Assembly: GCA_965662575.1 (NCBI GenBank)
Contig: CBFIHN010000002.1
Span: 7,087 to 71,086, forward strand
Direction of reading: 5' to 3'
DNA from: Gammaproteobacteria bacterium
GTDB lineage: Bacteria > Pseudomonadota > Gammaproteobacteria > Francisellales > CACEW01
Length of the DNA stretch: 64,000 nucleotides
The notes beneath the pieces were generated by a model. That model saw nothing but the letters and a program-made list of their open reading frames with translations. It did not search any database and was not told the origin of the DNA. The position numbers and the translations under genes were made by a program. Shown in pieces: positions 6,060 through 56,649 of this stretch (the first letter of the stretch is position 1; each line of letters begins with the position of its first letter).

Positions 6060-6061
6060 GC

Positions 6062-8224: not shown

Positions 8225-8241
8225 GGGCATGATGATGCCCT
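8224..8241 (+). other. Perfect 7-bp hairpin (AGGGCAT-gatg-ATGCCCT) between mshN and mshE
   Basis: Read directly. It overlaps the mshN stop codon. No T-tract follows, so it is not a classical terminator; it may be an intra-operon RNA element. Confidence 0.3.
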
Positions 8242-8253
8242 AGTGAGGGCTTC

Positions 8254-9939: not shown

Positions 9940-9967
9940 CACGCATAACGGCTGAGAGGGGAACACC

Positions 9968-11619: not shown

Positions 11620-12133
11620 TCATCACTCAGAAAATACACCTCGCGAAAAAGGCTTTACGCTTGTTGAACTTGTGATTACCATGATTCTAATTGGCGTTAT
11701 TTCAACAGTGGTTGGGCCATTGCTTTATGAAGGTGTGACCAATTTTAAAAAAGCACATGCGCTGGAGTCTTTGTCTTCTCAGGGAAGATCAACGTTGGAA
11801 TTGATGGCTCAGGATGTTCGCAATATTGGCGCGGAACTGAGTCATACGCTTATCAGTATGAATGCAAATCAACTTAGTATGGAAAATATGTACGACCAAA
11901 CGATTAGTTTTTCCCTCTCTGGTAGCGATTTAATTCGTACTATTGATGGCAATAACCAAAATTTAGCAGAGGATGTTAGTAGCTTAAGTTTTAGCTACTA
12001 CAATGTGAATGGGCAAACAACAGCAACCACAGCTGATGTGCGGTATATCAAGCTTGGATTGAGTTTAACTAAAGAAGGTTTGTCACAGCATTTTGAAACC
12101 ATTGTTGCATTAAGAAATGCCGTGTTAGGGTAA
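11612..12133 (+). CDS. Prepilin-type minor pilin-like protein
   Basis: Motif EKG|FTLVELVITMILIGVISTVV. It overlaps the upstream pilin gene by 8 nt. Confidence 0.75.
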   Translation: MTSHHSENTPREKGFTLVELVITMILIGVISTVVGPLLYEGVTNFKKAHALESLSSQGRSTLELMAQDVRNIGAELSHTLISMNANQLSMENMYDQTISFSLSGSDLIRTIDGNNQNLAEDVSSLSFSYYNVNGQTTATTADVRYIKLGLSLTKEGLSQHFETIVALRNAVLG

Positions 12134-12182
12134 CCAACGACTGGGTTAACCCTTCAGCTGAAAAAGACTAGAGGAGTAAGCG

Positions 12183-15552: not shown

Positions 15553-15629
15553 TGGCGGACCGGACGGGACTCGAACCCGCGACCTCCGGCGTGACAGGCC
15601 AGCATTCTAACCAGCTGAACTACCGGTCC
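15553..15629 (-). tRNA. tRNA-Asp (GUC)
   Basis: The reverse complement reads GGACCGGTAGTTCAGCTGGTTAGAATGCTGGCCTGTCACGCCGGAGGTCGCGGGTTCGAGTCCCGTCCGGTCCGCCA. It is near-identical in layout to E. coli tRNA-Asp, with anticodon loop CUGUCAC. Confidence 0.92.
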
Positions 15630-15636
15630 GCAAAGA

Positions 15637-15712
<76 letters not shown>

Positions 15713-18916: not shown

Positions 18917-19471
18917 ATGAAAACTCATGATACTTTACATGTTGAGATCACTGGAGCAGATATTTTGAACTTGATTAATCATGCAGCAACCCAAGATGAT
19001 ATACAGCGCCTGTCAGTGGAATCTGCAGAAGGGTTTAATAAAGTAGGGCAGCAGTTCGAGAAAATTAGCCAGCAATTCAAAAAGGTTGATGAGCGGTTTG
19101 AGAAAATTGACCAGCAATTCAAAGGGATTGATCAGCAGTTCGAGAAAATTGACCAGCAATTTAAAGGGATTGATCAGCAGTTCGAGAAAATTGATCAGCA
19201 GTTCGAGAAAATTGACCAGCAATTCAAAGGGGTTGATCAGCAGTTCGAGAAAATTGACCAGCAATTCAAAGGGATTGATCAGCGGTTTGAGAAAATTGAC
19301 CAGCAATTCAAAGAGGTTGATCAGCGGTTTGAGAAATTAGAAGCAAAATTTGATAAGCGTTTTGAGAAATTGGAAATCAAAATGGATAAGTTAATGTTTA
19401 CCGTTGTCTCAGGCATAACATTTCCATTAGTGGTTGGGCTAGTGCTGTTTGGGATTCATTTATTTTTATAA
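18917..19471 (+). CDS. Tail-anchored coiled-coil protein made of about 15 heptads (I/V)DQ(Q/R)F(E/K)(K/G)
   Basis: Heptads VGQQFEK ISQQFKK VDERFEK IDQQFKG IDQQFEK and so on, then a C-terminal TM (FTVVSGITFPLVVGLVLFGIHLFL) followed by the stop. Confidence 0.6.
   Translation: MKTHDTLHVEITGADILNLINHAATQDDIQRLSVESAEGFNKVGQQFEKISQQFKKVDERFEKIDQQFKGIDQQFEKIDQQFKGIDQQFEKIDQQFEKIDQQFKGVDQQFEKIDQQFKGIDQRFEKIDQQFKEVDQRFEKLEAKFDKRFEKLEIKMDKLMFTVVSGITFPLVVGLVLFGIHLFL
19043..19336 (+). repeat. In-frame tandem 21-nt (heptad) / 42-nt DNA repeats
   Basis: Units ATTGACCAGCAATTCAAAGGG and ATTGATCAGCAGTTCGAGAAA alternate nearly perfectly from 19085 to 19336. One extra EK unit breaks the alternation. Confidence 0.9.
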
Positions 19472-26438: not shown

Positions 26439-29400
26439 ATGAAACTGTCTGAAATTTGTATCGAACGTCCGGTATTTGCGACGGTCTTAAGCCTATTGCT
26501 GATTATCTTCGGTTGGATTGGCTATAGCCACTTGGAAACACGATATTTTCCCAAAGTCAAAGAGCCTTATGCGCAGGTTTCTGTGAGTTATCAAGGGGCT
26601 AGCCCAAGCCTAATGAATAATGAAGTCACCAAGCAGCTCGAAAATGCGCTGATTAATATTTCAGGTTTAACCAGTATTCATTCTCGTAGTTCCTATGGGT
26701 CAACTCATATTGACTTGACCTTTGAAGATGGTGCCAACATGACGGAGAAAATGGGTGAAATCCGTGATGAAGTGTCATCAATACGAGATAAATTGCCTGC
26801 AGATATTGATCCCCCTTCCATCAGCTCAGGAGGTGTGCTGCGGCCTGTCTTAAATATTGGGTTTATGGATCCGCAGATGACCCAGGCACAAATCCGTGAT
26901 TATATCAGTCAAGAGATTACCCCCATTTTATACAATCTACCAGGAATGGGTGCAGTATGGGCCTATGGCGCCAGTACCTATGCCTTGCGAATTTGGTTGA
27001 ACCCACAAAAAATGGCGGCATTGAATGTTACAGTCACTGATGTCCAGACAGCGCTGACTAATAATAATATCGATTTCTCAGGGGGGTCGATTCGTGGTGC
27101 TGATCGTAATTATTCCATTGTTTCAAACACACGATTAAGTTCGGTGAAGCAGTTTGCCAATATGATTGTCAAACAAGAAGGCAGTCAGTTTATTCGTTTA
27201 AAGGATATTGCCAAGGTTGAGCTCGGTAGCAGTAGCTTGCAAGATTCCCCCATGCGAATTAATAGCCAACCAGGCATTGATCTAGAAATTCGCCCACTGG
27301 ATACGGCCAATCCAATTACAGTCGCGCAAGAAACCAAGGACGCCTTGGCTAAGCTGAAGACAAAGCTGCCCAAAAGTATGACAATGTTAGTGACCTATGA
27401 TCAATCTGAATACCTCAAAGGGGCAATTCATGAAAGTTTTATGACACTGGTCGAAGCCATTATTTTGGTCATGCTCGTGGTGTTCTTGTTTTTAGGGTCG
27501 ATCCGTGCGGCATTGGTGCCGATTGTCACGATTCCCGTTTGCGTGATTGCTGTTTTTGGTGCGATGTTATTAGCGGGTTTTTCAATTAATGTCGTGACCC
27601 TGCTGGCCGTGATTCTCGCCATTGGCTTGGTGGTGGATGATGCTATTGTCGTTCTAGAAAATGTTCATCGTCATATTGAAACTGGTTTGGCGCCCTACAA
27701 AGCAGCATTGAAAGGGAGTAAAGAAATTGGTTTTGCTATTATTGCGATGACCATCACCCTAGCTGCTGTCTATGCGCCAGTTGGTTTCACCAGTGGTTTT
27801 AGTGCAACGGTATTCCGTGAATTTGCCTTTACACTAGCTGGTGCGGTCTTGATTTCAGGCTTTGTTGCCTTAACCCTATCGCCGATGATGTGTGCACGCA
27901 CGTTACCGCCGCATGAAAATGAAACCCGCTTTGAACTGTGGTTGGTTAAGGCTTTTGATTTGCTCAATGCCAAATATCGTCGTTTACTGGCCGTGCTATT
28001 GCAACGTCGTTGGTGGGTTGTAGTTGGTTTGTTTGTTATTGGTGGATTAGGCTATTTCGTTTATCTCTCGATGCCACAAACATTTATCCCCAAGGAAGAT
28101 ATTGGTTATTTTACTGTGAGTGTTGATTCTCCGCCAGGATCAACGGTTAAATACACCAATAGTTATATGCAGCGATTAGATAAAATTTATGCCAAAGCGC
28201 CGGATGTATTAAGTTATGCATCGTTTATTTTTTCAGGTAATGCAACCAATTTTGTCACCATGAAGCCTTGGAATCAGCGTGAGCAAAGCACACAGCATTT
28301 CTTAAAAACTTTGATGCCAAAACTCGATAATATTCCTGGTATTACCGTCAGCTCAGATATTCCTGATCCAGTCAGTTATGGTAGTGGAAGTGATGGTGCC
28401 GCGGTGACTGTGCATATTATGAGTTTAAAGGGCTATGCTGCATTGCAAAAAACAATTGATCGACTCAAAGCAACATTCAATCAATATCCGGGAATGACCA
28501 ATGTTAAAACCAACTTAAAATTTGATAACCGTGTATTTGAAGTGCAATTCAAGCGCAATCAGGCGGCAACCTTGGGTGTGTCACCACAAGATATTGCCGA
28601 TACCATGAGCATCTTAATGAGTGGTAAACATATTGGCGATATTCAACGGGGAAACGACAGTTATGATGTTCTGGTGCAAATGCAGATGAAAGACCTGAGA
28701 AGCTTTTCAGGGCTGAATAATATTTATGTTCGTGGTCGCAGCAGTGATGGTGCAAGTGATAGTGCAGTCAGTGCAACCATGGTGCCACTGAGTAACCTGG
28801 TGACACTCAGTTCAAAAGTCCGTCAGAATAATTTGTACCGCTATGGTCAGTCGCCCTCGGCAGACATCACGGCTGATTTGGCTCCGGGCTATGACTTGGG
28901 GACGGTGGTTAATTATATCAATCAAGTCATGGCAACAGATTTGCATGCCGATGAGCAATATGCCTATAGTGGACGCATACAAGCATTTCTAAAGTCCAGT
29001 GGGACAATGTTGGGTTTGTTTGCGTTATCAATTTTATTTATTTATCTAGTCCTAGCGGCACAATTTGAAAGTTTTATTGACCCATTTATTATTTTATTAA
29101 CGGTTCCCTTGTGTATTGTTGCAGCGATTGCAACACTGAAAGTCTCTGGTGGCTCACTCAACCTTTACACCAATATTGGGCTGATTACTTTAGTGGGTTT
29201 GATTACCAAGCATGGGATCTTAATTACACAATTTGCCAATACAAAACTCAACGAGGGTGCTTCCCTGATTGAATCAGTGATTGACGCTGCTGTTGTGCGT
29301 TTACGACCCATTTTGATGACAACATCGGCGATGGTCTTAGGTTCGATTCCTTTAGCCCTAGCAACTGGACCGGGTTCTAACAGTCATCAACAAATTGGTT

Positions 29401-29522
29401 GGGTAATTGTCGGTGGTTTATTATTTGGCACAGTATTTTCATTACTGGTGGTGCCGGTGGCTTATTACTTGCTGTCACCAATCGATCATCGCAAAAAGAA
29501 ACGACTCGCGCAGAAGCAGTAA
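26439..29522 (+). CDS. RND efflux pump inner-membrane subunit (AcrB/HAE1-like) with no adjacent adaptor gene
   Basis: 1027 aa with the canonical RND N-terminus MKLSEICIERPVFATVLSL and GLVVDDAIVVLENV. Confidence 0.9.
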   Translation: MKLSEICIERPVFATVLSLLLIIFGWIGYSHLETRYFPKVKEPYAQVSVSYQGASPSLMNNEVTKQLENALINISGLTSIHSRSSYGSTHIDLTFEDGANMTEKMGEIRDEVSSIRDKLPADIDPPSISSGGVLRPVLNIGFMDPQMTQAQIRDYISQEITPILYNLPGMGAVWAYGASTYALRIWLNPQKMAALNVTVTDVQTALTNNNIDFSGGSIRGADRNYSIVSNTRLSSVKQFANMIVKQEGSQFIRLKDIAKVELGSSSLQDSPMRINSQPGIDLEIRPLDTANPITVAQETKDALAKLKTKLPKSMTMLVTYDQSEYLKGAIHESFMTLVEAIILVMLVVFLFLGSIRAALVPIVTIPVCVIAVFGAMLLAGFSINVVTLLAVILAIGLVVDDAIVVLENVHRHIETGLAPYKAALKGSKEIGFAIIAMTITLAAVYAPVGFTSGFSATVFREFAFTLAGAVLISGFVALTLSPMMCARTLPPHENETRFELWLVKAFDLLNAKYRRLLAVLLQRRWWVVVGLFVIGGLGYFVYLSMPQTFIPKEDIGYFTVSVDSPPGSTVKYTNSYMQRLDKIYAKAPDVLSYASFIFSGNATNFVTMKPWNQREQSTQHFLKTLMPKLDNIPGITVSSDIPDPVSYGSGSDGAAVTVHIMSLKGYAALQKTIDRLKATFNQYPGMTNVKTNLKFDNRVFEVQFKRNQAATLGVSPQDIADTMSILMSGKHIGDIQRGNDSYDVLVQMQMKDLRSFSGLNNIYVRGRSSDGASDSAVSATMVPLSNLVTLSSKVRQNNLYRYGQSPSADITADLAPGYDLGTVVNYINQVMATDLHADEQYAYSGRIQAFLKSSGTMLGLFALSILFIYLVLAAQFESFIDPFIILLTVPLCIVAAIATLKVSGGSLNLYTNIGLITLVGLITKHGILITQFANTKLNEGASLIESVIDAAVVRLRPILMTTSAMVLGSIPLALATGPGSNSHQQIGWVIVGGLLFGTVFSLLVVPVAYYLLSPIDHRKKKRLAQKQ

Positions 29523-29625
29523 TTAGTCATGCCAGGCATGACGCATATGCTGTGCTTAATTTGCCTGTCACGCTATTGTGCCCTAAAATGCGGCGATTAT
29601 CAGCAAAACAATCTTGAGCTTTTTT

Positions 29626-29799
29626 ATGCAAGACTATAAGCAGTATATGTGCGTTATTTGTGGTTTGATCTACAACGAAGAAGACGGTTGGCCAGATGAC
29701 GGTATTGCTCCGGGTACTCGCTGGGAAGATGTTCCATTGACTTGGATTTGCCCAGATTGCGGTGCGACCAAAGATGATTTTGAAATGATTGAGCTTTGA
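29626..29799 (+). CDS. Rubredoxin
   Basis: [38 protein letters not shown], with two CxxC pairs. ATG at 29626 is preferred to the TTG at 29614. Confidence 0.9.
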
Positions 29800-30048: not shown

Positions 30049-30186
30049 CGGTCATGACCTAAGTGTTATTTTTAAGACATTTTTGCAGATTTATTGGTTA
30101 GAATGAGATATCGCTAGTATCTTTTAGTTCTCAGTTAGTGGGCAAAAAGTTCTGGGCAAAAGGAATCCAAGCCAAGGAGGTGGTAG

Positions 30187-33100
30187 GTGTTTGATGAGCT
30201 TAAAAACATAGATGTCGAATTAAAAAACGCGAAACCAACAGGTAATCCGGCAACTGATGACCAAATCGAGCTATTTGCAAGAATTTGTCAAGCGTATATT
30301 TCGCTCAAACAAGATAAAAATATTGCACTGAATAACAATATCATTACGCTCTATGGGCAAGAAATTAGCATTGATGGATGTAGTCCTTTTATTGCATATT
30401 TGGTGGCAGATGTTGTTCTGTATAAGGATGGATATTTAAATAAACAATATGAAGTTTTTTTCGATAGTATTAATGGATACAGTGAAGCATTAAGTAGTGA
30501 AAATTTACAATCTGTTTTAGACAATCTCTCAGAGTTAGAAAAATATAACAATAAAAATGAACAGTTAAAAATAACAATTGAGCTGCTTACACAAGATGTA
30601 CATGAGCTTAACCATGCTAACCAAAAAGCACGTTCTAATCTCAATAAATTTTTGCAAGAATTAGACAGTTCGCTAGGACAGGAGGCCCATAATCTAGAAG
30701 ATTATTCTATTGAGGATGTAGAACAAAATATTCAAGCAAGAATTTTCCAAGTGCAGGAGATAAGAAAATTCTACAATTCACACAAAAATAATTTTTTAGA
30801 AGGAGAAAAACAAGAGATTATAACTGAGGAGGAAGAACGAATAAGAGAGCTAGAGGAATCTCTTGAAGGTCTAGAATTAAATCTTGATAGTTATAAAAAA
30901 ATAGTCGATGACCAAGATAAATCAAAACAAGAAAACGATAAAAAAATCGAAAGCTTATACGAAGAAATAATAGCTTTTGATAAGCTTTTAGAAAGTGAAC
31001 GCACGAAATCCGAGGAATATCAAAAACATAATAAAGAATTAAGAGAATTTATCGGTCAAAAAGATAAGGATCAGAAGAGTCTGCAGCATGAAATTGATAC
31101 TTTTAAACAATGGTTAGATTCTGAGATTAAAATATGCCAAAAAGCGCTACAAGACAACGTTGACAATACACAAAAAGTTGAAGCAGAGTCGACTACGGAT
31201 AATTCTCTGAAGAGCAGTCATAAACAGCTATCCAGGATGCTACAAGCGATACAATGCCAAATGGCTGCTCTACGAGAAGAAAATATGGCACTCAGGCTGT
31301 CAAACGATATGGTGTCCGGTCAGTTTGATTACGGCAACAATGACTGTCTAGATTTCGACAAGTTCTTGCCGGATCCAAAACAATCCACAAAAAATATTCA
31401 ACTGCTCAAGGATACTTATCAGAAGCACAATGCAGCGAATGATAAATTAGAAGAGAAAAAACTTGCGTTTGATAGTGTCAGTACGGATGCAACTAATAGT
31501 GATCTGATTGATTCATATACGAATGATCTCGAAGAAATTAACAACGTAGTTGACTTCTCTGCTGTGCCAAAATTGGACAATATAGTTGATTTTACTCAGC
31601 AAATTGATTACGAAATTCAGTTCATAGATGAACAGGCTAACAATTATGAAGAATATGCAAAACTTATTGAAGACGCTAAAAAAAATACAGTCAGTCGAGA
31701 TAATCAAGTCAGTAAGAAGCCTAGCAGAAAAAATAAGAGTGAAGAGTCTAATAATAGTGATAATGTCAATCGTGAATTTGATAACATTGTTGTCGAAATA
31801 AAAAAAGATGCGAGAAGCTTTCAACAATTTAAGGAAAAGTATCAGCAACTAAGTGAAGATGCCAAACTTTTAAACGTATTAAATACAACGCTTAGTGACG
31901 AGTCGAAAAAATATCAACGTTCAATCGGGCATTTGCAGAGGCTCAATAACCGGTTGCTTAAAGAAATTAAGCAATCTAAAGAATTAAACACCCAGCAGCT
32001 TAGTTCTCTCCAAAATGAAATTAAAAAAAATAACCAAAATATTGAGAGATTTAAATCAACCATTCAAGATCTCAATAAGGAAATTAAAGATAATCAAGTT
32101 CGTTTTGAAGAGAAAAATTTGCAGAATCAGGGCAAAATTTCTAATTTAGAAGCGCTAACTATAAAACTTGAGGCGTTGAATAGAGAAAATCAAAGTAAAA
32201 TTGAAAGCAGCAAACAATTAATTAACGAGCTAAATGCAAAGAATACTGATTTAGAGAATCTTCTATCGGCTCAGGTGGTTATTAATAAAAATTTGGATGA
32301 ACAGATTCAATCACTAGCAGAAGAACTTAATAAGAGCACAAGTGATAATAAAGGGCTTTCGAACACAATTGACCAACTCAAGACGCATAATAATCAGCAA
32401 AAACAAACTATTGGTGATATGAAGAATGAGCTTCAACAAGCAAAAAAGAAAATTGATCAATTAACCATATATAAAGATTTGTATGAAAAGGAAAGGGAAA
32501 ATAACTTGGAGTTATTTAGGCTAAATAACCAGTTAAACCATCAGTTGTCCCGTGCTAACAAACATTTAACAGACCTACAGAGAAAGGTTAAGAATTTAGA
32601 ATCATATCAGAGATCCGTAAGCCGGGAAAATAAAGCGGTTATCCAGCAGTTAAAGGAAAAATCTGAGCAAGAGCAAGCCAAAGTCAATGAGATGCAGTTA
32701 GCATTGAAAAAGAATCAGCAATTGATCGCTGAAAACAATCAGATCAAACCACAGCTCAAGACGCTTGCAGATAAAGTGAATGAATTGGAAAACAATGCAG
32801 TTTTAACTCAGGGAACGATTAAGCACTATCAAGAACTCAATCAATCACTAAATGCTGAGAATGATAGGCTTAAGTCTCAGGTAGACAATTTAAGTGATAA
32901 TAATTATGAATTGTTAAATGAAATTTATGAGAAAGAGTCGAAGATAAGCGATTTAACTGAGAAAACTGATGACCTAAATATGAAGCTTGGGAACACTTTG
33001 ACTCAGAATAAAGAATTAGTTAAGGAAAATCAAAAGTTAAAAAACAATCTTAGCCAATGTGAAGGTGAGTTAGAGCTCTATAAATGTTTAGTTGAGAGTT

Positions 33101-36100
33101 ATGAAAAGGAGCTAAAGGATAATAATTTCGCATCTGAGAAGAAAAAACAATTTTGGTCTGATGAGTTTTCATGTCAGTTGCAAGAAAATATTCAGTTAAT
33201 GTCTCAAAATGCTGAATTATTCAAGAGCCGTGAAAATCTGTTAATGAATAGTAAGCAGGACGGAAAAACGATCAATAGCCTAAATGCATTAGTTGCTGAA
33301 CAAAAAGAACAACTTGCATTGCTAAAAGACAAAAACACAGACTATAAACGCCTAAATGACATCATTAAGACTCAATCTGAGTCAATTAAAGGTCTAAAAA
33401 ATAAATTTAAAGAAATTCATGCTGAAAATAGTTCATTATCTGTCGTGCATAAACAGACTGTGGCTCAGAATAGTACCCTGAAAAACTCAGTTGATCTTTT
33501 AAATCAGGAAGTGGAACATTTAAAACAATGGCCAGAAATTGAGCAAAAAATTGGTACACTGACTCCAACTTTATTTAAAGCGTTAAAAGAGGTTAGTTTT
33601 GATGCAAGTACTATCGAGCTTTTGGTTGCTCAAGACATTGCACATGATGAGCCTGATGATAGTAATCAGGATGAAAAACCCCCTGTTGAAATAAAAGAAT
33701 ACTTAGCATCGATAAAAGACTACTCTTGGTATAATAATGTATTTAATAAAATCGTTGCTAAATACATCACCACAAAACTAGATCTTAACCAAATCCAAAA
33801 TCTTAGCCAGTTGATAAATGCGAATGATACAAGTGGAGATACGAGCTCTACGACTCTTGGCAGTGAGGGCAACAATACTGATCATAATCAAATTAATCTA
33901 CACAACGATGATTCAGATGAAAATCAAAAATTAAAAGCACTAGCCAATTTGATAAAAGGTGATGATCGGCTTATTGCAGAGGTTCACGAGCGTGCGACTA
34001 TTGATTGTGCGAGTTATCTTAGCTCTGACCGTCAACAGTACGAATATTATGAACAATATTTTCCAAATGGAGTGACTGCATGGCGATGGGTTTTAGGCAT
34101 TACGGCGACATTAACTATAGGCGGTGTTTCTGCAGCTGTTGTCTTAGGTGTATTAAGCGCCATGGGGTATTTTTCCTCCGATGCTGTTGTAGAGCCTATA
34201 TATAAAGCCCCCGAAATCAAACCTGGTGCTAGCTTTATTTTAACTGGAATCTCTGAGGATCCGGACCCCGAAGTTAATCATGGTGATTTGATCTCTGAGT
34301 TTTTAGCTGGCAATGTAATATTTGATAATGATACTGTCACCCTAAAGGGCATAGCGGTCACTGATAATAAAAGTGGCGACGATGGCGCTTACGAATATTC
34401 GTTAGATAGTGGTAATACTTGGGCAGTTCTGCCATCTGATTTAAGAGATAGCAATGCTTTATATTTACCAGCTAATGCGAAACTGCGTTTTATGCCCAAT
34501 GAAAATTACAATGGTACGCCAGGTGCGTTGCTCTTTAGGGCAATTGATAGTAATTACTCCAGTGAGTTAAGCAGTGATCAACTATTTGATGCCAGTCAGA
34601 ATGGCGGAGAAGCTTCTATTTCTGCTGATACAGTGCCGATCAATATTGCCGTTTTAGAAGTCTATGATCAGCCAAAGGTAACTGGATCCAATTTGGATAA
34701 AAATTACCGCGAGGGTAGTGGTCAGCAAAATATCTTTGAGATTGCTAAATTTGATGCGGTTGATCAAAATCAGTCAGTTCTTGAGGCCCAGGTTGGTTTC
34801 TCTGGGGTGACGGATAAAGATAAGCTAGTTATCGGTGACTGTTCATTTGCCTTCGATGCCAGTTCACAACAAGAGTGCAAACTGACTGTTGGTGATACAA
34901 ATTATCAGTTTACTCTTGCAATAGACAGTGTTAATAAGATCTATACGCTTAGCCATGTTGTTAATGAAGAAAGTGTGCCTGCAAGTAGTGATCAATTTCG
35001 CCAGGTATTTAATGCGATTCAATATAAAAATAGTGATGAAAATTTGGAGACAGATCGATTCGTCACATTTAGCTTATTATCCTTTAAAGATAATGGGAAG
35101 GAAAATAATCAAAGCATTTTGTCTGAAGCTGAGCCAATCAAAACACAGTTTACAGTTCAGTATGTTAATAATGCCCCCACAGCCGTAAATGGTAGCAATC
35201 AGGCTGAGTTTTTAGAAAATGGCGAGCCAGTAAAAATATTTAATCAAGACCTCAGTTTGTCTAGTGGTGGTGAATTAAGTCAAACCATATCAACACTGAT
35301 ATTTCGAATTTCTAATGCATCAGAGGCTGATCAATTGTCGCTTGAAAATGGGGTTACTATTGATCTTGGTCAGGATAAAATTAACGTTAATTTTACATAT
35401 CGTGATCATATTTATAGTTATTCACGCTCAAAAAATTTAGGAACTTTAACACTGACTAATAGTGGTAATGCATCCGTTGAGCATATTGAGTCTTTGTTGA
35501 AGAGTTTGAGCTATAAAAATAATTCTAACCATATTTTGCAAAACTATACCTTTTCTATAGCCCTGGATAAGGTTCAAGATGATGGCGGTACTCAAAATGG
35601 CGGCCTTAATACAACGGAACCTGACGGCTTTACATCTTCTATCTTTGTAAAGGCAGTCAATGATGCGCCTAAAATTGAAATTAATGATCAAAGTCATGTT
35701 TCTGTTGATACTCAGGAGCCTGGGCAAAAAATTAAAGCGGTGACGTTCACAATGAGTAGTAGTGTTATTCGTCCATCGCCAGAAGGTGTTTTAACAATTG
35801 ATAATAACCGTATTGATTTGGCACAAGCTGAAAGTTTCCCTCCTGGTTTTTCAGTCACTACCAATGGTGACAATAGTAAAACCATCACCTATGAACCCAG
35901 TACGCCGATGACAGTGCAAAAGGCAGAAAACATTATTAATGGCATGCAATATAGCTATGTTGACGATAATGATAGTGCTCGGAATGTGACGTATAAAGAT
36001 AAATTGACAGTTAGTGTTTCTGAGGCAGAGGTAACAGAAAATGCAAATTCTAGTGCGATCAGTTTGGGCTTTAAAAGTGGTTATTATCAGTGGGATATTT

Positions 36101-36675
36101 CCCCTGAGGTTCAGCACTCACTCTCTGGCTCTGCAGTGACAGTGACGTTTGATAGGCCAGACAATTTAAGTGTGCTGGATCCATCGAGATGCGGCTATAG
36201 CAAAGATAATGGCGATTTAATTCCTTTTACTGAAAATCAATTAGAGCAGGGAAGATTTAGTTTGTCCCTTGAACAAGACACAACGGTTAAAGTAGTCTTA
36301 GAGTTGAATCAAGAGAATACCGATCCAAATAGTCCACAAGGATCTTACTCTCCTAATGAGCTTTCATGTTTTGTTCCGTCGGGTTTTGGTGGCACTTATA
36401 ATTGTCACGAGATAAGCCATGGTGGTTCGCGACAATTATTTGAGATAGGCTTGTCTAATAACATGATGTCACCTAACACGGTGCTGATGCTTGCCTCGGC
36501 AACTTCCATGGGGATAAGCCCACTTGCACTGCCGATTTTTGGTCTTGGTATTTGGTTTTATTACAAACACTATCATAGGCAACAGAATCATGGGACTTCT
36601 TATGAAAATTCGAATACTTTTATGAATATTGAGGAACTGAATAATCCTGAAAATGAAGTACATATAGTTGACTGA
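30187..36675 (+). CDS. Giant (2162 aa) bitopic protein: about 1300-aa coiled coil, TM, about 770-aa cadherin-like (VNDAP-type) module region, TM, acidic tail
   Basis: GTG start 7 nt after AAGGAGG, and a single uninterrupted 6.5-kb frame. TM1 WRWVLGITATLTIGGVSAAVVLGVLSAMGYF (nt about 34081-34170). TM2 VLMLASATSMGISPLALPIFGLGIWFYY (nt about 36481-36565). Module signatures GIAVTD..YEYSLDSGNTW..RFMPNENYNGTPG, VNNAPTA and VNDAPKI. Confidence 0.8.
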   Translation: MFDELKNIDVELKNAKPTGNPATDDQIELFARICQAYISLKQDKNIALNNNIITLYGQEISIDGCSPFIAYLVADVVLYKDGYLNKQYEVFFDSINGYSEALSSENLQSVLDNLSELEKYNNKNEQLKITIELLTQDVHELNHANQKARSNLNKFLQELDSSLGQEAHNLEDYSIEDVEQNIQARIFQVQEIRKFYNSHKNNFLEGEKQEIITEEEERIRELEESLEGLELNLDSYKKIVDDQDKSKQENDKKIESLYEEIIAFDKLLESERTKSEEYQKHNKELREFIGQKDKDQKSLQHEIDTFKQWLDSEIKICQKALQDNVDNTQKVEAESTTDNSLKSSHKQLSRMLQAIQCQMAALREENMALRLSNDMVSGQFDYGNNDCLDFDKFLPDPKQSTKNIQLLKDTYQKHNAANDKLEEKKLAFDSVSTDATNSDLIDSYTNDLEEINNVVDFSAVPKLDNIVDFTQQIDYEIQFIDEQANNYEEYAKLIEDAKKNTVSRDNQVSKKPSRKNKSEESNNSDNVNREFDNIVVEIKKDARSFQQFKEKYQQLSEDAKLLNVLNTTLSDESKKYQRSIGHLQRLNNRLLKEIKQSKELNTQQLSSLQNEIKKNNQNIERFKSTIQDLNKEIKDNQVRFEEKNLQNQGKISNLEALTIKLEALNRENQSKIESSKQLINELNAKNTDLENLLSAQVVINKNLDEQIQSLAEELNKSTSDNKGLSNTIDQLKTHNNQQKQTIGDMKNELQQAKKKIDQLTIYKDLYEKERENNLELFRLNNQLNHQLSRANKHLTDLQRKVKNLESYQRSVSRENKAVIQQLKEKSEQEQAKVNEMQLALKKNQQLIAENNQIKPQLKTLADKVNELENNAVLTQGTIKHYQELNQSLNAENDRLKSQVDNLSDNNYELLNEIYEKESKISDLTEKTDDLNMKLGNTLTQNKELVKENQKLKNNLSQCEGELELYKCLVESYEKELKDNNFASEKKKQFWSDEFSCQLQENIQLMSQNAELFKSRENLLMNSKQDGKTINSLNALVAEQKEQLALLKDKNTDYKRLNDIIKTQSESIKGLKNKFKEIHAENSSLSVVHKQTVAQNSTLKNSVDLLNQEVEHLKQWPEIEQKIGTLTPTLFKALKEVSFDASTIELLVAQDIAHDEPDDSNQDEKPPVEIKEYLASIKDYSWYNNVFNKIVAKYITTKLDLNQIQNLSQLINANDTSGDTSSTTLGSEGNNTDHNQINLHNDDSDENQKLKALANLIKGDDRLIAEVHERATIDCASYLSSDRQQYEYYEQYFPNGVTAWRWVLGITATLTIGGVSAAVVLGVLSAMGYFSSDAVVEPIYKAPEIKPGASFILTGISEDPDPEVNHGDLISEFLAGNVIFDNDTVTLKGIAVTDNKSGDDGAYEYSLDSGNTWAVLPSDLRDSNALYLPANAKLRFMPNENYNGTPGALLFRAIDSNYSSELSSDQLFDASQNGGEASISADTVPINIAVLEVYDQPKVTGSNLDKNYREGSGQQNIFEIAKFDAVDQNQSVLEAQVGFSGVTDKDKLVIGDCSFAFDASSQQECKLTVGDTNYQFTLAIDSVNKIYTLSHVVNEESVPASSDQFRQVFNAIQYKNSDENLETDRFVTFSLLSFKDNGKENNQSILSEAEPIKTQFTVQYVNNAPTAVNGSNQAEFLENGEPVKIFNQDLSLSSGGELSQTISTLIFRISNASEADQLSLENGVTIDLGQDKINVNFTYRDHIYSYSRSKNLGTLTLTNSGNASVEHIESLLKSLSYKNNSNHILQNYTFSIALDKVQDDGGTQNGGLNTTEPDGFTSSIFVKAVNDAPKIEINDQSHVSVDTQEPGQKIKAVTFTMSSSVIRPSPEGVLTIDNNRIDLAQAESFPPGFSVTTNGDNSKTITYEPSTPMTVQKAENIINGMQYSYVDDNDSARNVTYKDKLTVSVSEAEVTENANSSAISLGFKSGYYQWDISPEVQHSLSGSAVTVTFDRPDNLSVLDPSRCGYSKDNGDLIPFTENQLEQGRFSLSLEQDTTVKVVLELNQENTDPNSPQGSYSPNELSCFVPSGFGGTYNCHEISHGGSRQLFEIGLSNNMMSPNTVLMLASATSMGISPLALPIFGLGIWFYYKHYHRQQNHGTSYENSNTFMNIEELNNPENEVHIVD

Positions 36676-36948: not shown

Positions 36949-39900
36949 ATGGATAATAGGAAGCAGGGACGTTTTCCGTATCAAAAAATTTGTTTCAATA
37001 TATCATTGGCAGTGGCTACTGCATTGTTATCTGCTTGTGGCGGCGGTGGCAGTAGCTCTTCACCACAGCCTGTGCCACCAGTTGGACCTGTCGCTAAACT
37101 GGAAGTTTCTAGTAATAATCAGGTTGCTTTAGGTGATAGCATGGATGTCCATGTTAAACTGCAGCCCTTGTTAATGAGTTTTCACCTTGGTGCGCAAACA
37201 TCGCCAGAATCTGCTGCAACGAATCTTAAATTTAATTTTGTTAGCCCCGCTGATGCCAATGATTTTGTGGTGACGAAAAGTATCAGCTGTAACCGGTTTA
37301 CACCAAACCAAGCTTGCACAATTACTTTGGCAGCTAAAGATTCTGCTTATCAAAGCTTGGCTAATTCTTTAGTGCAATATCAAGTGCAGGCCACTGTCGA
37401 TGGTATTGTACAAAAGTCGACGGTACAAACCCTTCGAGTGAATGCATTATCATTGCATGCAGATCGTGATACTGTCGCTAGTGGTGATGCGAACACGGTC
37501 ACAGTCAGTAATATAACGGGTAAAGCAATAGATTTAAGTAAAGCACAGTTTACTTTGGCTCAGGCTGATCAAGCTGATGGTGCTGCTGTTCATATTTTTG
37601 ATAATCAGTGTGTAAAGTTACTGCCGAATAATGCGCAATGTACCTTCAAGCTCCAAGCAAGTAATGATGCGCCAACCCAAGATGTTTCTTATCAAATTAA
37701 TGCCAATGATGATAAGTTGGCAGAGGGTGCGGTGTCGGTTGTTAGGCCTGAGCTTGCATTTAGCTCGTTGGAGCCGAGTCAGACAGAGTCTATCCCCAAT
37801 CAGGACTTTAGCTTGTTAGTGACCAATAATTCATCTGTTACTGCGCAAAAAGTCTCAGCAACGCTTACGTCAGAGTCGGGACTTAACCATGGTGAAGCTC
37901 TAGATGTTGTCAAAAATGACTGCGATGGTATTAATCTATCTGCAGGTAATAGCTGTGAAATCATTTATAGGCCAACTAATGAGACGATTGCAACAGATAT
38001 TATGGTAACGGCGGCTAATGCTGATTCAGCACAGGAAAAAATTACGAATCGTAAGAGTATGTTGTCACTAGCTGTTGATCCAAGTACTGTCACTATCACC
38101 GATGGCATTGCTCATGATATTAAAGTCACGGTTAACAATAATGGTGCTAATACTCAGCCTATAGCGATTGATGCGCCAATATTAGGCCAGCCAGTTGCCA
38201 AAGATTCAAATTGCGGTAACATTTTGGGTGCTGGAAAAAGTTGTGTTAACACTTATCAGTTTACAGGGCGGGCATCCCAATCTAATCCGATTAAAACAGA
38301 TGTGACACTCAGCAATGGCATGTCTGCAGGCTTGCAAGTTAATCATTATCCAGCATTTTATAGTTTAACCGCGAGTATGCATCCGGTCTCTACATCACTT
38401 GCAAGTCATGTTGGCCGGTTTGTATTGCCCTATAACTATACAGATTCAAGTGGTGTGTCTCACCAAATACTGCTTTTTGCGGGAACACAAGGGCTCTCCA
38501 TATCCCGTGATCAAGGTAAAAATTGGAAAAATTTGACGGCAGCAGATGGTCTCGGTGGTAATGGCATTAATGATATTAAAGTTAATGATAATAGCTTCTA
38601 TGTGGCAACCAATGCAGGAATTAGTGTTTCTACAGATTATGGTAAAACCTGGCATTTCCGCTCAGTTAATGGTGATCAAGTCAATAGTTTAACTTTTTCT
38701 GGCAAGACGATCTATGCGGGGACTGCAGAGGGAAGTGTTGATATTTCTAATGATGGCTACACTTGGGTGCAGCATGATGTTGATGGGGTAAATCAAGGTA
38801 ATCAGGTTTTTCAAGTGGTAGTTAGTGGGGATAAAATTTATGCATTAGCGATCAGGGGGGTATTTGAGTCTTCTGATGGGGGGCTAACTTGGCAGCAGGT
38901 GAATTTGCCAGGCAGCCCAGTAGCGATTCAGATGTCAATGCAAAATAATCACTTATACCTGGCAACAACTTTAGGTATTTATCAGTCGGCAGATCAGGGG
39001 TCAACTTGGCAAATCTCACTGCAAAATAAAGGTTTTGTCTATGACATATTGTTTGATGATAACCATCAACCATTAGCAGCTGCTACAGATACAGGTGCTT
39101 ATTTCTTTACTAGTGGTGACACCAATAACTACCATAAATATGATGCTGGCAGTGGTTTGCCAAGTAGTAAGGTTTATAGTTTGGGTGTTGATTCTACGGG
39201 TTGCTTTTATGCCGCAACCTCTGCAGGCCTAACAAGTCTTCATCATAAAGCAACAACATGGCAGTCATTAGGTGCTGTCAATACGCCCTTTTTGCCGTTA
39301 GATTCAAGTGTTGGCGCATACCCTGGGATAGATAAAAGAATTAACCAAGTAAATGCGTTGTTTGATTATAAAAATCATCTATATGTCTCTACACAATATA
39401 ATGGTATTGGAGTTTCCGATGATGGCGGACAAACTTGGCAGGTTATAACCACTGGGAATGGGCTGCCTTCTGACCAAATCAGGCAGGTGGTTAGTGATAG
39501 TAGCGATAAGCTCTATGCGGCAACCCGTCATGGTTTGGCGGTTTCCAATGATCAGGGACATACTTGGCGGATATTGTCAGGGGATAGTTTGTTTAGTGTT
39601 TATGCTCAAGGTCAGAATATAGTTGTTGGCATTGTCAATGGTGGGATTAAGTTTTCAGAAGATGCAGGTGCTACTTGGCAAGAGGCACAAGGTGTTGCAG
39701 CAAGAAGTGTTTATGCTTTTGCAAAGTTGGGAAGTACCTTATATGCAGGTATTAATGGCGATGGTGTATATAAATCTTTGGATAATGGTAAGAGCTGGGA
39801 TCAGCTTCCGAGTACCAATAGTTTTGGTTCGATTAATGCCCTTACTGTGTCTGGTAGTATGTTATATGCCGGTGGTCAAAAAGGGCTATTTGAGTCACAA

Positions 39901-40140
39901 GACAATGGTCAGACATGGACAGTTGTATTGACAGCAAGTCATCAGGTTAATGGTATTCTTGATAATGACGGCATACTTTATGCATCCACTGACAATGGGC
40001 TGTACAAGATAAATGGTAATCAGCATCAACAATATTTAACAACCTCTGGACTACCTGGGAATAGCATCAATGATGCATTGTTAGTTGATCAGCAGTTATA
40101 TGTTGGTACGCAGGGTGGTTTGGCGCGGATGGATCTATAG
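36949..40140 (+). CDS. Lipoprotein with four Cys-pair Ig-like modules and an Asp-box (BNR) double beta-propeller
   Basis: Lipobox LLSAC followed by a GGGGSSSS linker. Cys pairs at residues 114/123, 221/231, 325/336 and 422/432. At least 10 S-x-D-x-G-x-(T/S)-W boxes (SRDQGKNW, STDYGKTW, SSDGGLTW, SADQGSTW, SDDGGQTW, SNDQGHTW, SEDAGATW, SLDNGKSW, SQDNGQTW and others). Confidence 0.75.
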   Translation: MDNRKQGRFPYQKICFNISLAVATALLSACGGGGSSSSPQPVPPVGPVAKLEVSSNNQVALGDSMDVHVKLQPLLMSFHLGAQTSPESAATNLKFNFVSPADANDFVVTKSISCNRFTPNQACTITLAAKDSAYQSLANSLVQYQVQATVDGIVQKSTVQTLRVNALSLHADRDTVASGDANTVTVSNITGKAIDLSKAQFTLAQADQADGAAVHIFDNQCVKLLPNNAQCTFKLQASNDAPTQDVSYQINANDDKLAEGAVSVVRPELAFSSLEPSQTESIPNQDFSLLVTNNSSVTAQKVSATLTSESGLNHGEALDVVKNDCDGINLSAGNSCEIIYRPTNETIATDIMVTAANADSAQEKITNRKSMLSLAVDPSTVTITDGIAHDIKVTVNNNGANTQPIAIDAPILGQPVAKDSNCGNILGAGKSCVNTYQFTGRASQSNPIKTDVTLSNGMSAGLQVNHYPAFYSLTASMHPVSTSLASHVGRFVLPYNYTDSSGVSHQILLFAGTQGLSISRDQGKNWKNLTAADGLGGNGINDIKVNDNSFYVATNAGISVSTDYGKTWHFRSVNGDQVNSLTFSGKTIYAGTAEGSVDISNDGYTWVQHDVDGVNQGNQVFQVVVSGDKIYALAIRGVFESSDGGLTWQQVNLPGSPVAIQMSMQNNHLYLATTLGIYQSADQGSTWQISLQNKGFVYDILFDDNHQPLAAATDTGAYFFTSGDTNNYHKYDAGSGLPSSKVYSLGVDSTGCFYAATSAGLTSLHHKATTWQSLGAVNTPFLPLDSSVGAYPGIDKRINQVNALFDYKNHLYVSTQYNGIGVSDDGGQTWQVITTGNGLPSDQIRQVVSDSSDKLYAATRHGLAVSNDQGHTWRILSGDSLFSVYAQGQNIVVGIVNGGIKFSEDAGATWQEAQGVAARSVYAFAKLGSTLYAGINGDGVYKSLDNGKSWDQLPSTNSFGSINALTVSGSMLYAGGQKGLFESQDNGQTWTVVLTASHQVNGILDNDGILYASTDNGLYKINGNQHQQYLTTSGLPGNSINDALLVDQQLYVGTQGGLARMDL

Positions 40141-48858: not shown

Positions 48859-49593
48859 ATGGGATTTCTTATGGATGAGAAAAAATTATTAGCGAAACTT
48901 AACTCTATATTGACATCTTCAATTCAATGTATGGAATTTAAAAAATATGAAGAATATATGGAATTAAGTTTATCTTTTGATAATGATAAGAAAAAGATAA
49001 AAATAAAAAGGGATCTCCAGAGCTCGGGGGAGGATAAAGAAGAAGCTCTTTTAATTGTATGCATTAAAATATGGATGGCTAGTCTGACAAAAGACCCTTG
49101 TTTTAACCCTTTAAATAGATATGAAGTCCTAGTGGATGAAGAATTAAAAAATAAATTGGGAAGTATACTTCTCGTAAAAACTCTTATTGTAAGACTCTAT
49201 GCTGATATCATATATGGCAATATAAAAGACCATTATAAAAATTTAATTGATCGTAATAGACAATATATTAATTTCAAACAGTTTCTCGAGAAATATAAAA
49301 CATATGAAAAAGAATGTATTGAGCACATTATCAAATTCACCTCAAATCCCGGTCTTAATAGTCATTCTGAACTGTATGAAGGCCTCAAGAAAAGTGAAAA
49401 AAAACTTACCTCAAATTTTATTAATCCCCAGGGAAGGAAAATATTAAGAACTGTTACAGCATTTCCTTTCATTTTATTATTTGTTGTAACTTTTGGTTAT
49501 AGCCAGCGTTGGATAACAAGTGGAAAAGAACGAGAAATTAATAAATATCAAAATAACAGCTTTTTGGAGTGCTGTCATCCGTTTTTTATCAAA
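48859..49593 (+). pseudogene. Very AT-rich orphan gene, 5' part, interrupted by the IS
   Basis: The frame runs into the IS left end at 49594. The track protein's last 40 aa are IS-encoded. Removing the IS and one TSD copy rejoins it in frame to 51118-51186. Confidence 0.65.
49579..49593. repeat. Target-site duplication, left copy (CCGTTTTTTATCAAA)
   Basis: Identical 15-mer at 51103-51117, immediately outside the inverted repeats. Confidence 0.85.
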
Positions 49594-56413: not shown

Positions 56414-56649
56414 TGTTTTAGCTAGTACTTGAGCACCGCAGGTGTTAAAGCAACGCAGAAATAAGCAAAGAGATGGTTGCTGCGTAGGGTGAGTGTTTTA
56501 GGGGCGGTACATTGATGACACTCATGTTTTTATCCGCATGAAACCCTGGTTATCCGCCCGTGATTTTTATCTTTGATTCAATGCCATAGCAGTTGATAAT
56601 CGATAAAGCACCGGATTATAATCAACAGCCATACGCTCTTAGTGCTTCA

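What the first reader, a model, noticed from the sequence alone, without database searches (positions are those of the whole stretch)
30187..36675. Giant chimeric protein: cytoplasm-sized coiled coil joined through a TM to adhesin-type cadherin-like modules, then a second TM and an acidic tail
The architecture does not match any family I know.
- There is no N-terminal signal peptide.
- About 1100 aa are heptad-rich, Lys/Glu/Asn/Gln-dominated coiled coil.
- A clear TM follows at residues about 1299-1330.
- Next come about 770 aa of modules bounded by VYDQPKV, VNNAPTA and VNDAPKI, containing GIAVTD..YEYSLDSGNTW..LRFMPNENYNGTPG.
- That signature is normally seen in T1SS-secreted RTX/Bap-like surface adhesins.
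- A second hydrophobic anchor follows at residues about 2099-2126, then a 35-aa tail.

Adhesin modules trapped between two TM segments behind a huge signal-less coiled coil imply one of two things. Either this is an inner-membrane protein with a periplasmic cadherin-like loop, or it is a translocated protein that inserts into a host membrane. The tail (..NIEELNNPENEVHIVD) is Glu-rich and polar, like the E-block of Dot/Icm substrates. That reading is speculation unless the genome encodes a T4BSS.
Basis: partly seen in the sequence, partly recalled or inferred. Interest (0 to 1): 0.78.

Follow-up and report, generated by a model that had tools for sequence, protein, structure and literature searches.

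The report
Orphan giant membrane protein: coiled coil plus cadherin-like loop
A single intact 2,162-residue gene joins a long cytoplasmic helical rod to four adhesin-type cadherin-like modules held between two hydrophobic segments; no other sequenced organism was found to have this combination, and it is most likely a resident inner-membrane scaffold rather than a secreted effector.

Summary
Window 30187-36675 (+) is one uninterrupted ORF of 2,162 codons with a GTG start and a good Shine-Dalgarno. It has no signal peptide. About 980 residues are predicted alpha-helical and heptad-rich. A strong hydrophobic segment sits at residues 1299-1329 and a weaker one at 2097-2126. Between them lie four beta-sandwich modules.

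The modules are homologous to extender modules of giant DUF4347/RTX type I-secreted adhesins: 1,418 library hits, several colinear over about 450-560 residues. The AlphaFold model matches protocadherin EC1-4 and an Aeromonas RTX adhesin repeat.

Nothing found matches residues 1-1250 or 1950-2162. The full-length protein is a singleton in a collection of about 15 billion proteins.

The best reading is an N-in/C-in inner-membrane protein with an 83-kDa periplasmic cadherin-like loop and a cytoplasmic coiled-coil scaffold. The Dot/Icm-effector reading is disfavoured. Legionella transmembrane effectors mostly have periplasmic loops under 30 residues, and an 8.6-kDa insert into the SidF loop cut translocation by 80% (PMC11602083). 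The window holds no dot/icm genes.

Function is inferred, not shown. The second hydrophobic segment is only marginally membrane-like.

The parts
30174..30180 (+). Shine-Dalgarno AAGGAGG, 6 nt upstream of the GTG start
   Evidence: Read directly from the sequence.
30187..36675 (+). Whole gene, 2,162 codons plus stop; predicted 244 kDa
   Evidence: ORF list, translation without stops, molecular weight. An identical protein, P0002, is in NCBI as a singleton cluster from a 73,019-bp contig.
30187..30486 (+). N-terminal region, res 1-100: hydrophilic start, no signal peptide, small alpha/beta region of unknown fold
   Evidence: KD profile. Low-confidence AF2 secondary structure. No Pfam or PDB match.
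30484..33420 (+). Cytoplasmic alpha-helical, heptad-rich rod, res ~100-1078, with breaks at ~377-400, 411-463 and 500-523
   Evidence: Composition, heptad proxy, AF2 DSSP helices up to 193 residues long. SMC/Rad50-type matches are only sub-threshold. No Walker A motif. No homologue found.
33421..34080 (+). Juxtamembrane linker, res 1079-1298: acidic (pI 4.4), Asn/Ser/Thr/Asp-rich, mostly non-helical
   Evidence: No homologue found.
34081..34173 (+). TM1, res 1299-1329 (WRWVLGITATLTIGGVSAAVVLGVLSAMGYF): proposed signal-anchor, N-in
   Evidence: KD19 2.03. Hessa sum about +0.9 kcal/mol.
34195..34677 (+). Module A, res 1337-1497: cadherin-like beta-sandwich with an Asp-box (SLDSGNTW, res 1405-1412), ending in VYDQP
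   Evidence: pLDDT above 90. About 700-780 aligned stretches among the top 150 library hits. 33% identity to P0001 res 353-512. Motifs located.
34678..35178 (+). Module B1, res 1498-1664, ending in VNNAP
   Evidence: pLDDT 60-87. Colinear matches to DUF4347/RTX giants. About 20% identity to B2 and B3.
35179..35670 (+). Module B2, res 1665-1828, ending in VNDAP
   Evidence: pLDDT 54-94, mostly above 70. Covered by 63-86 aligned stretches.
35671..35967 (+). Module B3, res 1829-1927 (core; may extend further): same helix-strand motif (AENIINGMQYSY) as B1 and B2
   Evidence: pLDDT ~46-78. 10-40 aligned stretches. Alignment of the three B modules.
35968..36474 (+). Unassigned C-terminal part of the loop, res 1928-2096, with three Cys (2002, 2061, 2073)
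   Evidence: No homologue beyond res 1950. pLDDT below 45. No PDB match.
36475..36564 (+). Second hydrophobic segment, res 2097-2126: marginal TM2 or stop-transfer
   Evidence: KD19 1.63. Hessa sum about +4.7 and two prolines. Followed by KHYHR.
36565..36672 (+). C-terminal tail, res 2127-2162: basic/His at the membrane edge, then Asn/Glu-rich
36949..40140 (+). Downstream neighbour and possible (unproven) partner: 1,063-aa lipoprotein with BNR/sortilin-type propeller repeats
   Evidence: Lipobox LLSAC. Pfam and NCBIfam hits. GC3 of 0.32, similar to the giant gene.

Best explanation
This is one real gene for a resident inner-membrane protein of a diderm gammaproteobacterium.

**Proposed topology.** The signal-less N-terminal 1,298 residues stay in the cytoplasm and form a long alpha-helical, largely coiled-coil rod or scaffold. 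TM1 acts as a signal-anchor. The next 767 residues are exported to the periplasm. They fold as a string of four cadherin-like beta-sandwich modules, one Asp-box type and three of a second type, followed by a Cys-containing region of unknown fold. The second hydrophobic segment brings the chain back through the membrane and leaves a 36-residue tail in the cytoplasm.

**Origin of the loop.** The periplasmic string was derived long ago from a contiguous block of extender modules of a DUF4347/RTX giant adhesin. It was cut at a module boundary.

**Proposed role.** The likely role is structural. The protein would tie a cytoplasmic coiled-coil scaffold to the envelope (peptidoglycan or an outer-membrane lipoprotein), in the way 2-TM-anchored giant helical proteins organise poles or membranes.

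**Shown:** gene integrity, domain composition, homology and fold of the modules, uniqueness of the fusion.

**Inferred:** topology, periplasmic location, scaffold or tether function, and any partner.
For: - Intact ORF with Shine-Dalgarno.
- No signal peptide, and a 1,298-aa hydrophilic N-terminal region that Sec could not export.
- TM1 is strongly hydrophobic.
- The module string starts 7 residues after TM1, at a vestigial linker: YKAP aligns with VNDAP of P0001.
- The modules are homologous to 1,418 library proteins. The colinear ones carry DUF4347 at the N-terminus, and P0148 also carries RTX repeats at the C-terminus. An annotated E. coli plasmid example lies next to a TolC gene.
- The AF2 model has pLDDT above 90 for module A and mostly 70-90 for B1 and B2. 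Foldseek matches protocadherin EC1-4 (6e-10) and the Aeromonas RTX adhesin repeat 6xi1 (4e-9).
- K, H and R lie just after the second hydrophobic segment, consistent with the positive-inside rule.
- There is no RTX nonapeptide, so the usual T1SS route of these modules is not available.
- GC3 is equal in the two halves, the modules are only about 20% identical to each other and at most about 40% to any hit, and no repeats or IS flank the junction. This points to an old, maintained fusion.
- The genomic context is chromosomal housekeeping of a diderm: secretin, TolC, LPS heptosyltransferase, lipoproteins.
- A functional precedent for a giant 2-TM-anchored cytoplasmic helical scaffold exists: Agrobacterium GPR, 2,115 aa (PMC8262873).
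Against: - No orthologue was found, so conservation and purifying selection cannot be shown.
- TM2 is marginal (Hessa about +4.7 kcal/mol, two Pro), and AF2 did not model either TM confidently.
- No dedicated topology predictor could be run.
- The charge bias around TM1 is weak.
- The N-terminal model has mean pLDDT 44.5.
- Nothing in the neighbourhood points to a specific process.
- The protein search index is leaky: it missed the query's own database copy in 2 of 3 searches. Only the top 150 of 1,418 representative hits could be inspected.
Confidence: 0.5

Rival explanations
1. Type II (single-pass) inner-membrane protein. TM1 is the only membrane span. The whole C-terminal 830 residues, including the weakly hydrophobic 2097-2126 segment and the tail, lie in the periplasm. 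The C-terminal hydrophobic patch would dock onto a partner or onto the outer membrane's inner leaflet, making a trans-periplasmic tether.
For: The second segment is marginal: KD19 1.63, Hessa sum about +4.7 kcal/mol, two prolines. Four cadherin-like modules of roughly 4-5 nm each (established cadherin dimensions, my knowledge) would roughly span a periplasm. An outer-membrane-type lipoprotein with Gly at +2 is encoded next door.
Against: The segment is about 30 residues long and is followed directly by KHYHR, as a stop-transfer would be. It and TM1 are the two strongest hydrophobic segments in 2,162 residues (a third window, res 60-78, reaches KD 1.62 but contains two Asp) and they exactly bracket the beta-rich part.
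Confidence: 0.22
2. Translocated effector (Dot/Icm T4BSS or another system). It would insert into a host membrane with the coiled coil in the host cytosol, as a golgin/SNARE-like tether mimic, and the cadherin-like loop in the lumen.
For: Coiled coil plus two hydrophobic segments plus an N-in/C-in layout resembles Legionella TMD-effectors such as LegC2/3. The tail has Glu at -14, -13, -8 and -6. The gene has lower GC3 than its surroundings. The nearest AcrB relatives (59% identity) are Fastidiosibacteraceae. PMC11338181 groups that family with Legionellales, Francisellaceae and Piscirickettsiaceae as deep-branching intracellular gammaproteobacteria.
Against: Most Legionella TMD-effectors have periplasmic loops under 30 aa, and an 8.6-kDa insert into the SidF loop cut translocation by 80% (PMC11602083). 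Here the loop is 767 aa of folded domains. No dot/icm, T3SS or T6SS genes occur in 64 kb. The E-block is not canonical. The AcrB similarity carries no synteny, so the taxonomic hint is weak. The window encodes MSHA pili, an arginine succinyltransferase, an aldehyde dehydrogenase and efflux pumps, which suggests a free-living lifestyle.
Confidence: 0.06
3. Non-functional or accidental chimera: a recent in-frame fusion or assembly join of a coiled-coil gene with a fragment of a giant adhesin gene, not maintained by selection.
For: Singleton with no orthologues. GC3 below the local mean.
Against: A 6.5-kb ORF in 33-39% GC DNA stays open. Hydrophobic segments sit exactly at both ends of the module block, and the block begins at a module boundary. 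GC3 is identical in both halves. The modules are highly diverged from all known relatives and from each other. No repeats, IS or join signature occur at the junction. The Shine-Dalgarno is good.
Confidence: 0.1

Closest known systems
Giant DUF4347 / RTX (type I secreted) repeat adhesins, e.g. library proteins P0148 and P0034, and the 4,459-aa 'Ig-like domain-containing protein' WP_153681168.1 next to a TolC gene on E. coli plasmid NZ_CP081687.1
   Same: The ~160-aa Asp-box module and the ~165-aa B modules are homologous. They occur in the same order over about 450-560 residues and are bounded by the same VNDAP-type linkers.
   Different: This protein has no DUF4347 N-terminal domain, no RTX nonapeptides and no C-terminal T1SS region. 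It has only 4 modules rather than tens. The modules are flanked by hydrophobic segments and preceded by 1,300 cytoplasmic residues.
Eukaryotic classical cadherins and protocadherins (PDB 5dzy, 3q2w, 5iry)
   Same: The predicted fold is a tandem of cadherin-type beta-sandwiches with DxNDxP-like linkers. The overall logic is also shared: an extracytoplasmic cadherin string, a membrane span, and a cytoplasmic part that could engage a scaffold.
   Different: Sequence identity is only 10-13%, with no sequence-level relation to any PDB chain. The orientation is opposite, with the N-terminus cytoplasmic. There is a second hydrophobic segment. Two of the three linkers are degenerate (VYDQP, VNNAP).
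Agrobacterium growth pole ring protein GPR (2,115 aa). From my own knowledge, also other membrane-anchored coiled-coil scaffolds such as Caulobacter TipN and Bacillus EzrA
   Same: A giant protein with about 1,000-1,700 residues of cytoplasmic alpha-helix, held at the inner membrane by two transmembrane segments (PMC8262873).
   Different: GPR's two TMs are N-terminal and it is classified in the apolipoprotein family PF01442. Here the segments are C-terminal and 767 residues apart, there is no PF01442 match, and no sequence similarity was detected.
Legionella Dot/Icm transmembrane effectors (SidF, LegC2, LegC3)
   Same: N-in/C-in two-segment layout, coiled-coil content, and an acidic C-terminal tail.
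   Different: Their periplasmic loops are mostly under 30 aa and larger loops block export. No homology and no T4BSS genes were seen here.

Membership tests
DUF4347/RTX giant T1SS adhesins | Tandem extender modules of this sequence family | tested here: met
   phmmer over 1.84 billion representatives gave 1,418 hits, 677 of them at E<=1e-10. Matches are colinear.
DUF4347/RTX giant T1SS adhesins | N-terminal DUF4347 (PF14252) or retention domain | tested here: not met
   The Pfam scan of the whole protein and of res 1-135 shows no PF14252. It is present in relatives P0034 and P0148.
DUF4347/RTX giant T1SS adhesins | C-terminal RTX nonapeptide repeats (GGxGxD) and T1SS signal; adjacent T1SS genes | tested here: not met
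   No GGxGxD motif and no HemolysinCabind hit. The TolC/HlyD/MacB-like genes at 43.7-47.7 kb are 7 kb away and of the MacAB type.
Cadherin superfamily (fold) | Tandem cadherin-type beta-sandwich domains | tested here: met
   Foldseek against PDB: protocadherin beta-8 EC1-4 at E 6e-10, with desmocollin, N-cadherin and E-cadherin ectodomains also matched. The model is confident for modules A, B1 and B2.
Cadherin superfamily (fold) | Ca2+-binding linker motifs (DxNDxP and partners) and Ca2+ dependence | tested here: inconclusive
   VNDAP is intact at 1824, but the other two linkers read VYDQP and VNNAP. Ca2+ binding is not testable with these tools.
Pfam cadherin-like families (PF17892, PF17803, PF00028, PF17963) | Score above the gathering threshold | tested here: not met
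   No hit even at E<=10 on the isolated modules. These families sit elsewhere in relatives such as P0001 and P0148.
Dot/Icm (T4BSS) transmembrane effectors | Genome encodes a T4BSS | not testable with these tools
   Only 64 kb is available, and it holds no dot/icm genes. The organism was not identified.
Dot/Icm (T4BSS) transmembrane effectors | Short periplasmic loop (mostly under 30 aa) between the TM segments | tested here: not met
   The loop is 767 aa. The criterion comes from PMC11602083.
Dot/Icm (T4BSS) transmembrane effectors | C-terminal signal or E-block (EExxE-type) in the last ~20-30 residues | tested here: inconclusive
   The tail ...MNIEELNNPENEVHIVD has four Glu but no canonical block. 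The motif has low specificity.
SMC/Rad50-type coiled-coil ATPases | Walker A/B head domains; score above the NCBIfam cut-off | tested here: not met
   Best score 38.9 bits against a cut-off of 567. No GxxxxGK[ST] motif.
Apolipoprotein-like GPR/RgsE scaffolds | PF01442 apolipoprotein repeats; two N-terminal TMs | tested here: not met
   No PF01442 hit. The hydrophobic segments are C-terminal. Family features are taken from PMC8262873.

The most novel reading that the evidence does not exclude
A bacterial 'cadherin-to-cytoskeleton' linker. Adhesin extender modules would have been repurposed from the cell surface to the periplasm. There, anchored in the inner membrane, they would mechanically couple the envelope (peptidoglycan or an outer-membrane lipoprotein such as the adjacent BNR propeller protein) to a ~150-nm-class cytoplasmic coiled-coil scaffold. 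This would be a new class of trans-membrane structural organiser, found so far in one poorly sampled lineage.
Probability: 0.25. Interest if true: 0.7.

Novelty: new variant of a known kind. Interest (0 to 1): 0.45.

Why it matters
The modules used here are otherwise found in type I-secreted surface adhesins, which fold outside the cell. If this protein is made and sits in the inner membrane as predicted, those extender modules can be recruited for a job inside the envelope, physically attached to a giant cytoplasmic coiled coil. That would add a new architecture to the short list of bacterial membrane-anchored cytoskeletal scaffolds. It would also be a natural example of domain capture that respects module boundaries. 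Because the protein is an orphan, the finding currently says more about the plasticity of giant-protein evolution than about any general mechanism.

Tried and rejected
- **Family libraries.** Pfam, NCBIfam and PADLOC on the whole protein and on six sub-regions gave only sub-threshold noise: BigA_N, TMF_DNA_bd, SMC/Rad50.
- **Solved structures by sequence.** Four searches (the loop, the N-terminus, the C-terminus, and a profile of A1) found nothing significant.
- **Exact look-ups.** The giant protein, DnaJ and dUTPase are not on record in the contig index, so the source organism stays unidentified.
- **Genome collection.** No relative of the C-terminal half was found. The AcrB neighbour gives at best 59% identity to Fastidiosibacteraceae, without synteny, so this is not reliable taxonomy.
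- **Metagenome scan.** The whole protein found no relative.
- **Word-index protein searches.** The C-terminal half found one weak hit. The N-terminal 1,300 aa found only itself. A chimera of the four non-repetitive regions found nothing. The index missed the query's own copy twice, so these negatives are soft.
- **Plasmid tblastn.** Only module A hits.
- **Single-sequence AF2 of res 1-1200.** Too low in confidence (pLDDT 44.5) for a fold search; used only for helix content.
- **DNA-level scans.** DNA repeats, flanking repeats and the terminator/promoter scan were all at chance level. The hairpin at 33991-34011 is one of 3 found against 4.4 expected.
- **Ideas rejected.** An SMC-like ATPase (no Walker A). 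An internal start before TM1 (no Met between res 1100 and 1325). A C-terminal sorting signal of the PEP-CTERM/GlyGly-CTERM type, because the 36-aa tail is too long (my knowledge).

Full report

Yes. The window holds one ORF at 30187..36675 on the + strand, 2,162 codons with a GTG start. It translates without an internal stop. An AAGGAGG Shine-Dalgarno lies at 30174-30180, 6 nt before the start. No competing ORF longer than 111 aa overlaps it on either strand.

The first 50 residues are hydrophilic and acidic, so there is no signal peptide.

Residues 121-1180 are dominated by L, K, E, N and Q. A simple heptad proxy is high over about 100-350 and 550-1100. A single-sequence AlphaFold2 run predicts helix almost continuously from about 100 to 1078, with unbroken helices of 193, 147 and 103 residues. 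That model has mean pLDDT 44.5, so I use it only as a secondary-structure indication.

The rod is not perfectly continuous. There are non-helical breaks around 377-400, 411-463 and 500-523. Residues 1079-1298 form an acidic, Asn/Ser/Thr-rich, mostly non-helical linker.

The two strongest hydrophobic segments in the whole protein bracket the beta-rich part exactly:
- Residues 1299-1329: KD19 2.03, crude Hessa sum about +0.9 kcal/mol.
- Residues 2097-2126: KD19 1.63, Hessa sum about +4.7, two prolines.

The first is a convincing transmembrane helix. The second is marginal. The tail is 36 residues.

**2. What are the modules?**

Pfam and NCBIfam do not recognise them, even module by module at E<=10. 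No PDB chain is related by sequence.

A full phmmer scan of 1.84 billion cluster representatives with residues 1278-2162 found 1,418 proteins at E<=1e-3 and 137 at E<=1e-30. Apart from the query's own database copy, the 150 best are repeat proteins of 444-7,607 aa. I re-aligned them locally. They cover residues ~1330-1500 with 200-780 aligned stretches (about 700-780 across 1376-1475). They cover ~1500-1950 with tens of stretches. They cover nothing at all before ~1250 or after 1950.

Twenty-six matches at E<1e-8 are colinear over at least 250 residues, several over about 450-560. So modules A-B1-B2-B3 occur in this order in other proteins. P0034 and P0148 start with DUF4347, and P0148 ends with RTX nonapeptides and cadherin-like or Big_9 domains; P0140, another colinear hit, instead carries He_PIG and lactonase domains. 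An annotated example is a 4,459-aa 'Ig-like domain-containing protein' next to a TolC gene on an E. coli IncF plasmid.

Module A contains a perfect Asp-box (SLDSGNTW). The module boundaries are VNDAP-type linkers: VYDQP, VNNAP, VNDAP.

I built a 48-row alignment of these segments (A1) for AlphaFold2. It gave pLDDT above 90 for module A, mostly 70-90 for B1 and B2, about 60 for B3, and below 45 for residues 1928-2162. Foldseek against the PDB returned protocadherin beta-8 EC1-4 (E 6e-10), desmocollin-1, N-cadherin and E-cadherin ectodomains, and the tandem repeat of an Aeromonas RTX adhesin, 6xi1 (E 4e-9).

**3. Is the fusion unique?**

As far as these tools can see, yes.
- The identical protein is in the collection as P0002, from NCBI, on a 73,019-bp contig. 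It is a singleton at both 90% and 50% clustering.
- Searching the N-terminal 1,300 residues returned only that copy.
- A chimera of the four non-repetitive regions (1-135, 350-560, 1100-1335, 1940-2162) returned nothing at E<=0.1.
- A genome-collection scan with the C-terminal half, a metagenome scan with the whole protein and a plasmid tblastn found no relative beyond module A.
- None of the other 149 module-bearing proteins has a coiled-coil-like composition.

Two caveats apply. The word-index search failed to return the query's own copy in two of three runs. Only the top 150 of the 1,418 representative hits could be inspected.

**4. Is it one gene, and old?**

GC3 is 0.30 in the N-terminal half and 0.31 in the C-terminal half, against 0.389 +/- 0.04 for 33 other ORFs in the window. 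The two halves therefore share a history, and the gene may be of foreign origin. The next gene has GC3 0.32.

There are no DNA repeats, IS elements or flanking repeats at the junction or around the gene. Promoter-like and terminator-like sites are at or below shuffle expectation. There is no Met between residues 1100 and 1325 that could start a separate product.

The three B modules are only about 20% identical to each other. Module A is at most about 40% identical to any relative. This is not a recent duplication or a recent capture.

The module string starts 7 residues after TM1, at a vestigial linker: YKAP aligns with VNDAP of P0001. The junction therefore respects a domain boundary.

**5. 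How it most likely works**

The reasoning runs in steps:
- A 1,298-residue hydrophilic N-terminal region without a signal peptide cannot be exported by Sec. This rests on established knowledge and makes it an inference.
- TM1 should therefore act as an N-in signal-anchor, and the following 767 residues (83 kDa, pI 4.3) should be periplasmic.
- These modules normally fold outside the cytoplasm. The region contains closely spaced Cys pairs (1552/1564 and 2061/2073), which is compatible with an oxidising compartment.
- The second hydrophobic segment is followed at once by KHYHR, as a stop-transfer would be. This gives an N-in/C-in hairpin with a very large loop.
- There are no RTX repeats, so the usual T1SS route for such modules is not available.
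- The surroundings are chromosomal housekeeping genes of a diderm: an MSHA-type pilus cluster, LPS glycosyltransferases, an arginine succinyltransferase and aldehyde dehydrogenase, RND pumps, rubredoxin, RluD, Wzz, prepilin peptidase, TolC/HlyD/MacB, and grpE-dnaK-dnaJ.

I therefore commit to a resident inner-membrane protein that couples a long cytoplasmic coiled-coil scaffold to a periplasmic cadherin-like string. The role would be structural: a tether or organiser.

The Agrobacterium growth-pole-ring protein is a functional precedent. It is 2,115 aa, has about 1,700 aa of cytoplasmic helix and is held by two TMs (PMC8262873). It is not a relative: there is no PF01442 match and the TMs are at the other end.

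The adjacent gene encodes a 1,063-aa lipoprotein with BNR/sortilin-type propellers and similarly low GC3. It is a candidate periplasmic partner, but nothing tests that here.

**6. Rivals**

(a) Type II single-pass protein, with the whole C-terminus periplasmic. This is plausible because TM2 is marginal.

(b) Dot/Icm or other translocated effector. The layout and the acidic tail are reminiscent of such effectors. However, Legionella TMD-effectors mostly have periplasmic loops under 30 aa, and an 8.6-kDa insertion into the SidF loop reduced translocation by 80% (PMC11602083). A 767-aa folded loop is the opposite of what that pathway tolerates. No secretion-system genes of that kind are in the window. 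The only taxonomic hint is weak: an AcrB neighbour 59% identical to Fastidiosibacteraceae, with no synteny.

(c) Accidental chimera or assembly artefact. This is disfavoured by section 4.

**7. Novelty and interest**

The parts are known kinds: a coiled-coil rod and RTX-adhesin extender modules of cadherin-like fold. The arrangement is not described in any library or paper I could reach. I file it as a new variant of a known kind, namely membrane-anchored coiled-coil scaffolds with a captured adhesin block as the periplasmic domain.

Interest is moderate. The architecture is odd and the domain capture is neat. But the protein is an orphan from an unidentified organism, function is inferred only, and one of the two membrane spans is uncertain.

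Noticed in passing
window 1790-13799: An MSHA-type type IV pilus gene cluster: a PilN-like protein, a secretin, an AAA_22 MshM-like protein, a TPR protein, a T2SSE ATPase with an MshEN domain, a T2SSF platform protein and N-methyl pilins. It is followed by a 538-aa BNR-repeat protein.
   Followed up: partly
window 36949-40140: A 1,063-aa lipoprotein (lipobox LLSAC|GGGG, Gly at +2) with BNR/sortilin-Vps10-type propeller repeats. Its NCBIfam F510_1955 glycosylhydrolase score is 173 bits, just under the 175-bit cut-off. Its GC3 of 0.32 resembles the giant gene, so the two may have been acquired together.
   Followed up: partly
window 48859-50998: A low-GC ORF (GC3 0.27, no Pfam match) overlaps an HTH_29 winged-helix ORF. 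This may be a mobile-element remnant. There are no PADLOC hits.
   Followed up: partly
window 56631-58740: A cobalamin riboswitch (42.5 bits) lies directly upstream of a TonB-dependent receptor, presumably BtuB-like.
   Followed up: no
window 15556-15712 (-): Two adjacent tRNA genes between a ZIP transporter gene and the LPS heptosyltransferase gene.
   Followed up: no
window 26439-29799: An RND pump gene with no adjacent membrane-fusion gene. Its best relatives (59% identity) are all Fastidiosibacteraceae, with no shared synteny. It is followed by a 57-aa rubredoxin gene at 29626-29799.
   Followed up: partly
window 18917-19471: A small 184-aa coiled-coil protein with sub-threshold EzrA-like and other coiled-coil matches. 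It is unrelated in sequence to the giant protein.
   Followed up: no
tool behaviour: the search for homologous proteins returned the query's own database copy (P0002) in only one of three searches. Negative results from that index should therefore be treated as soft.
   Followed up: yes
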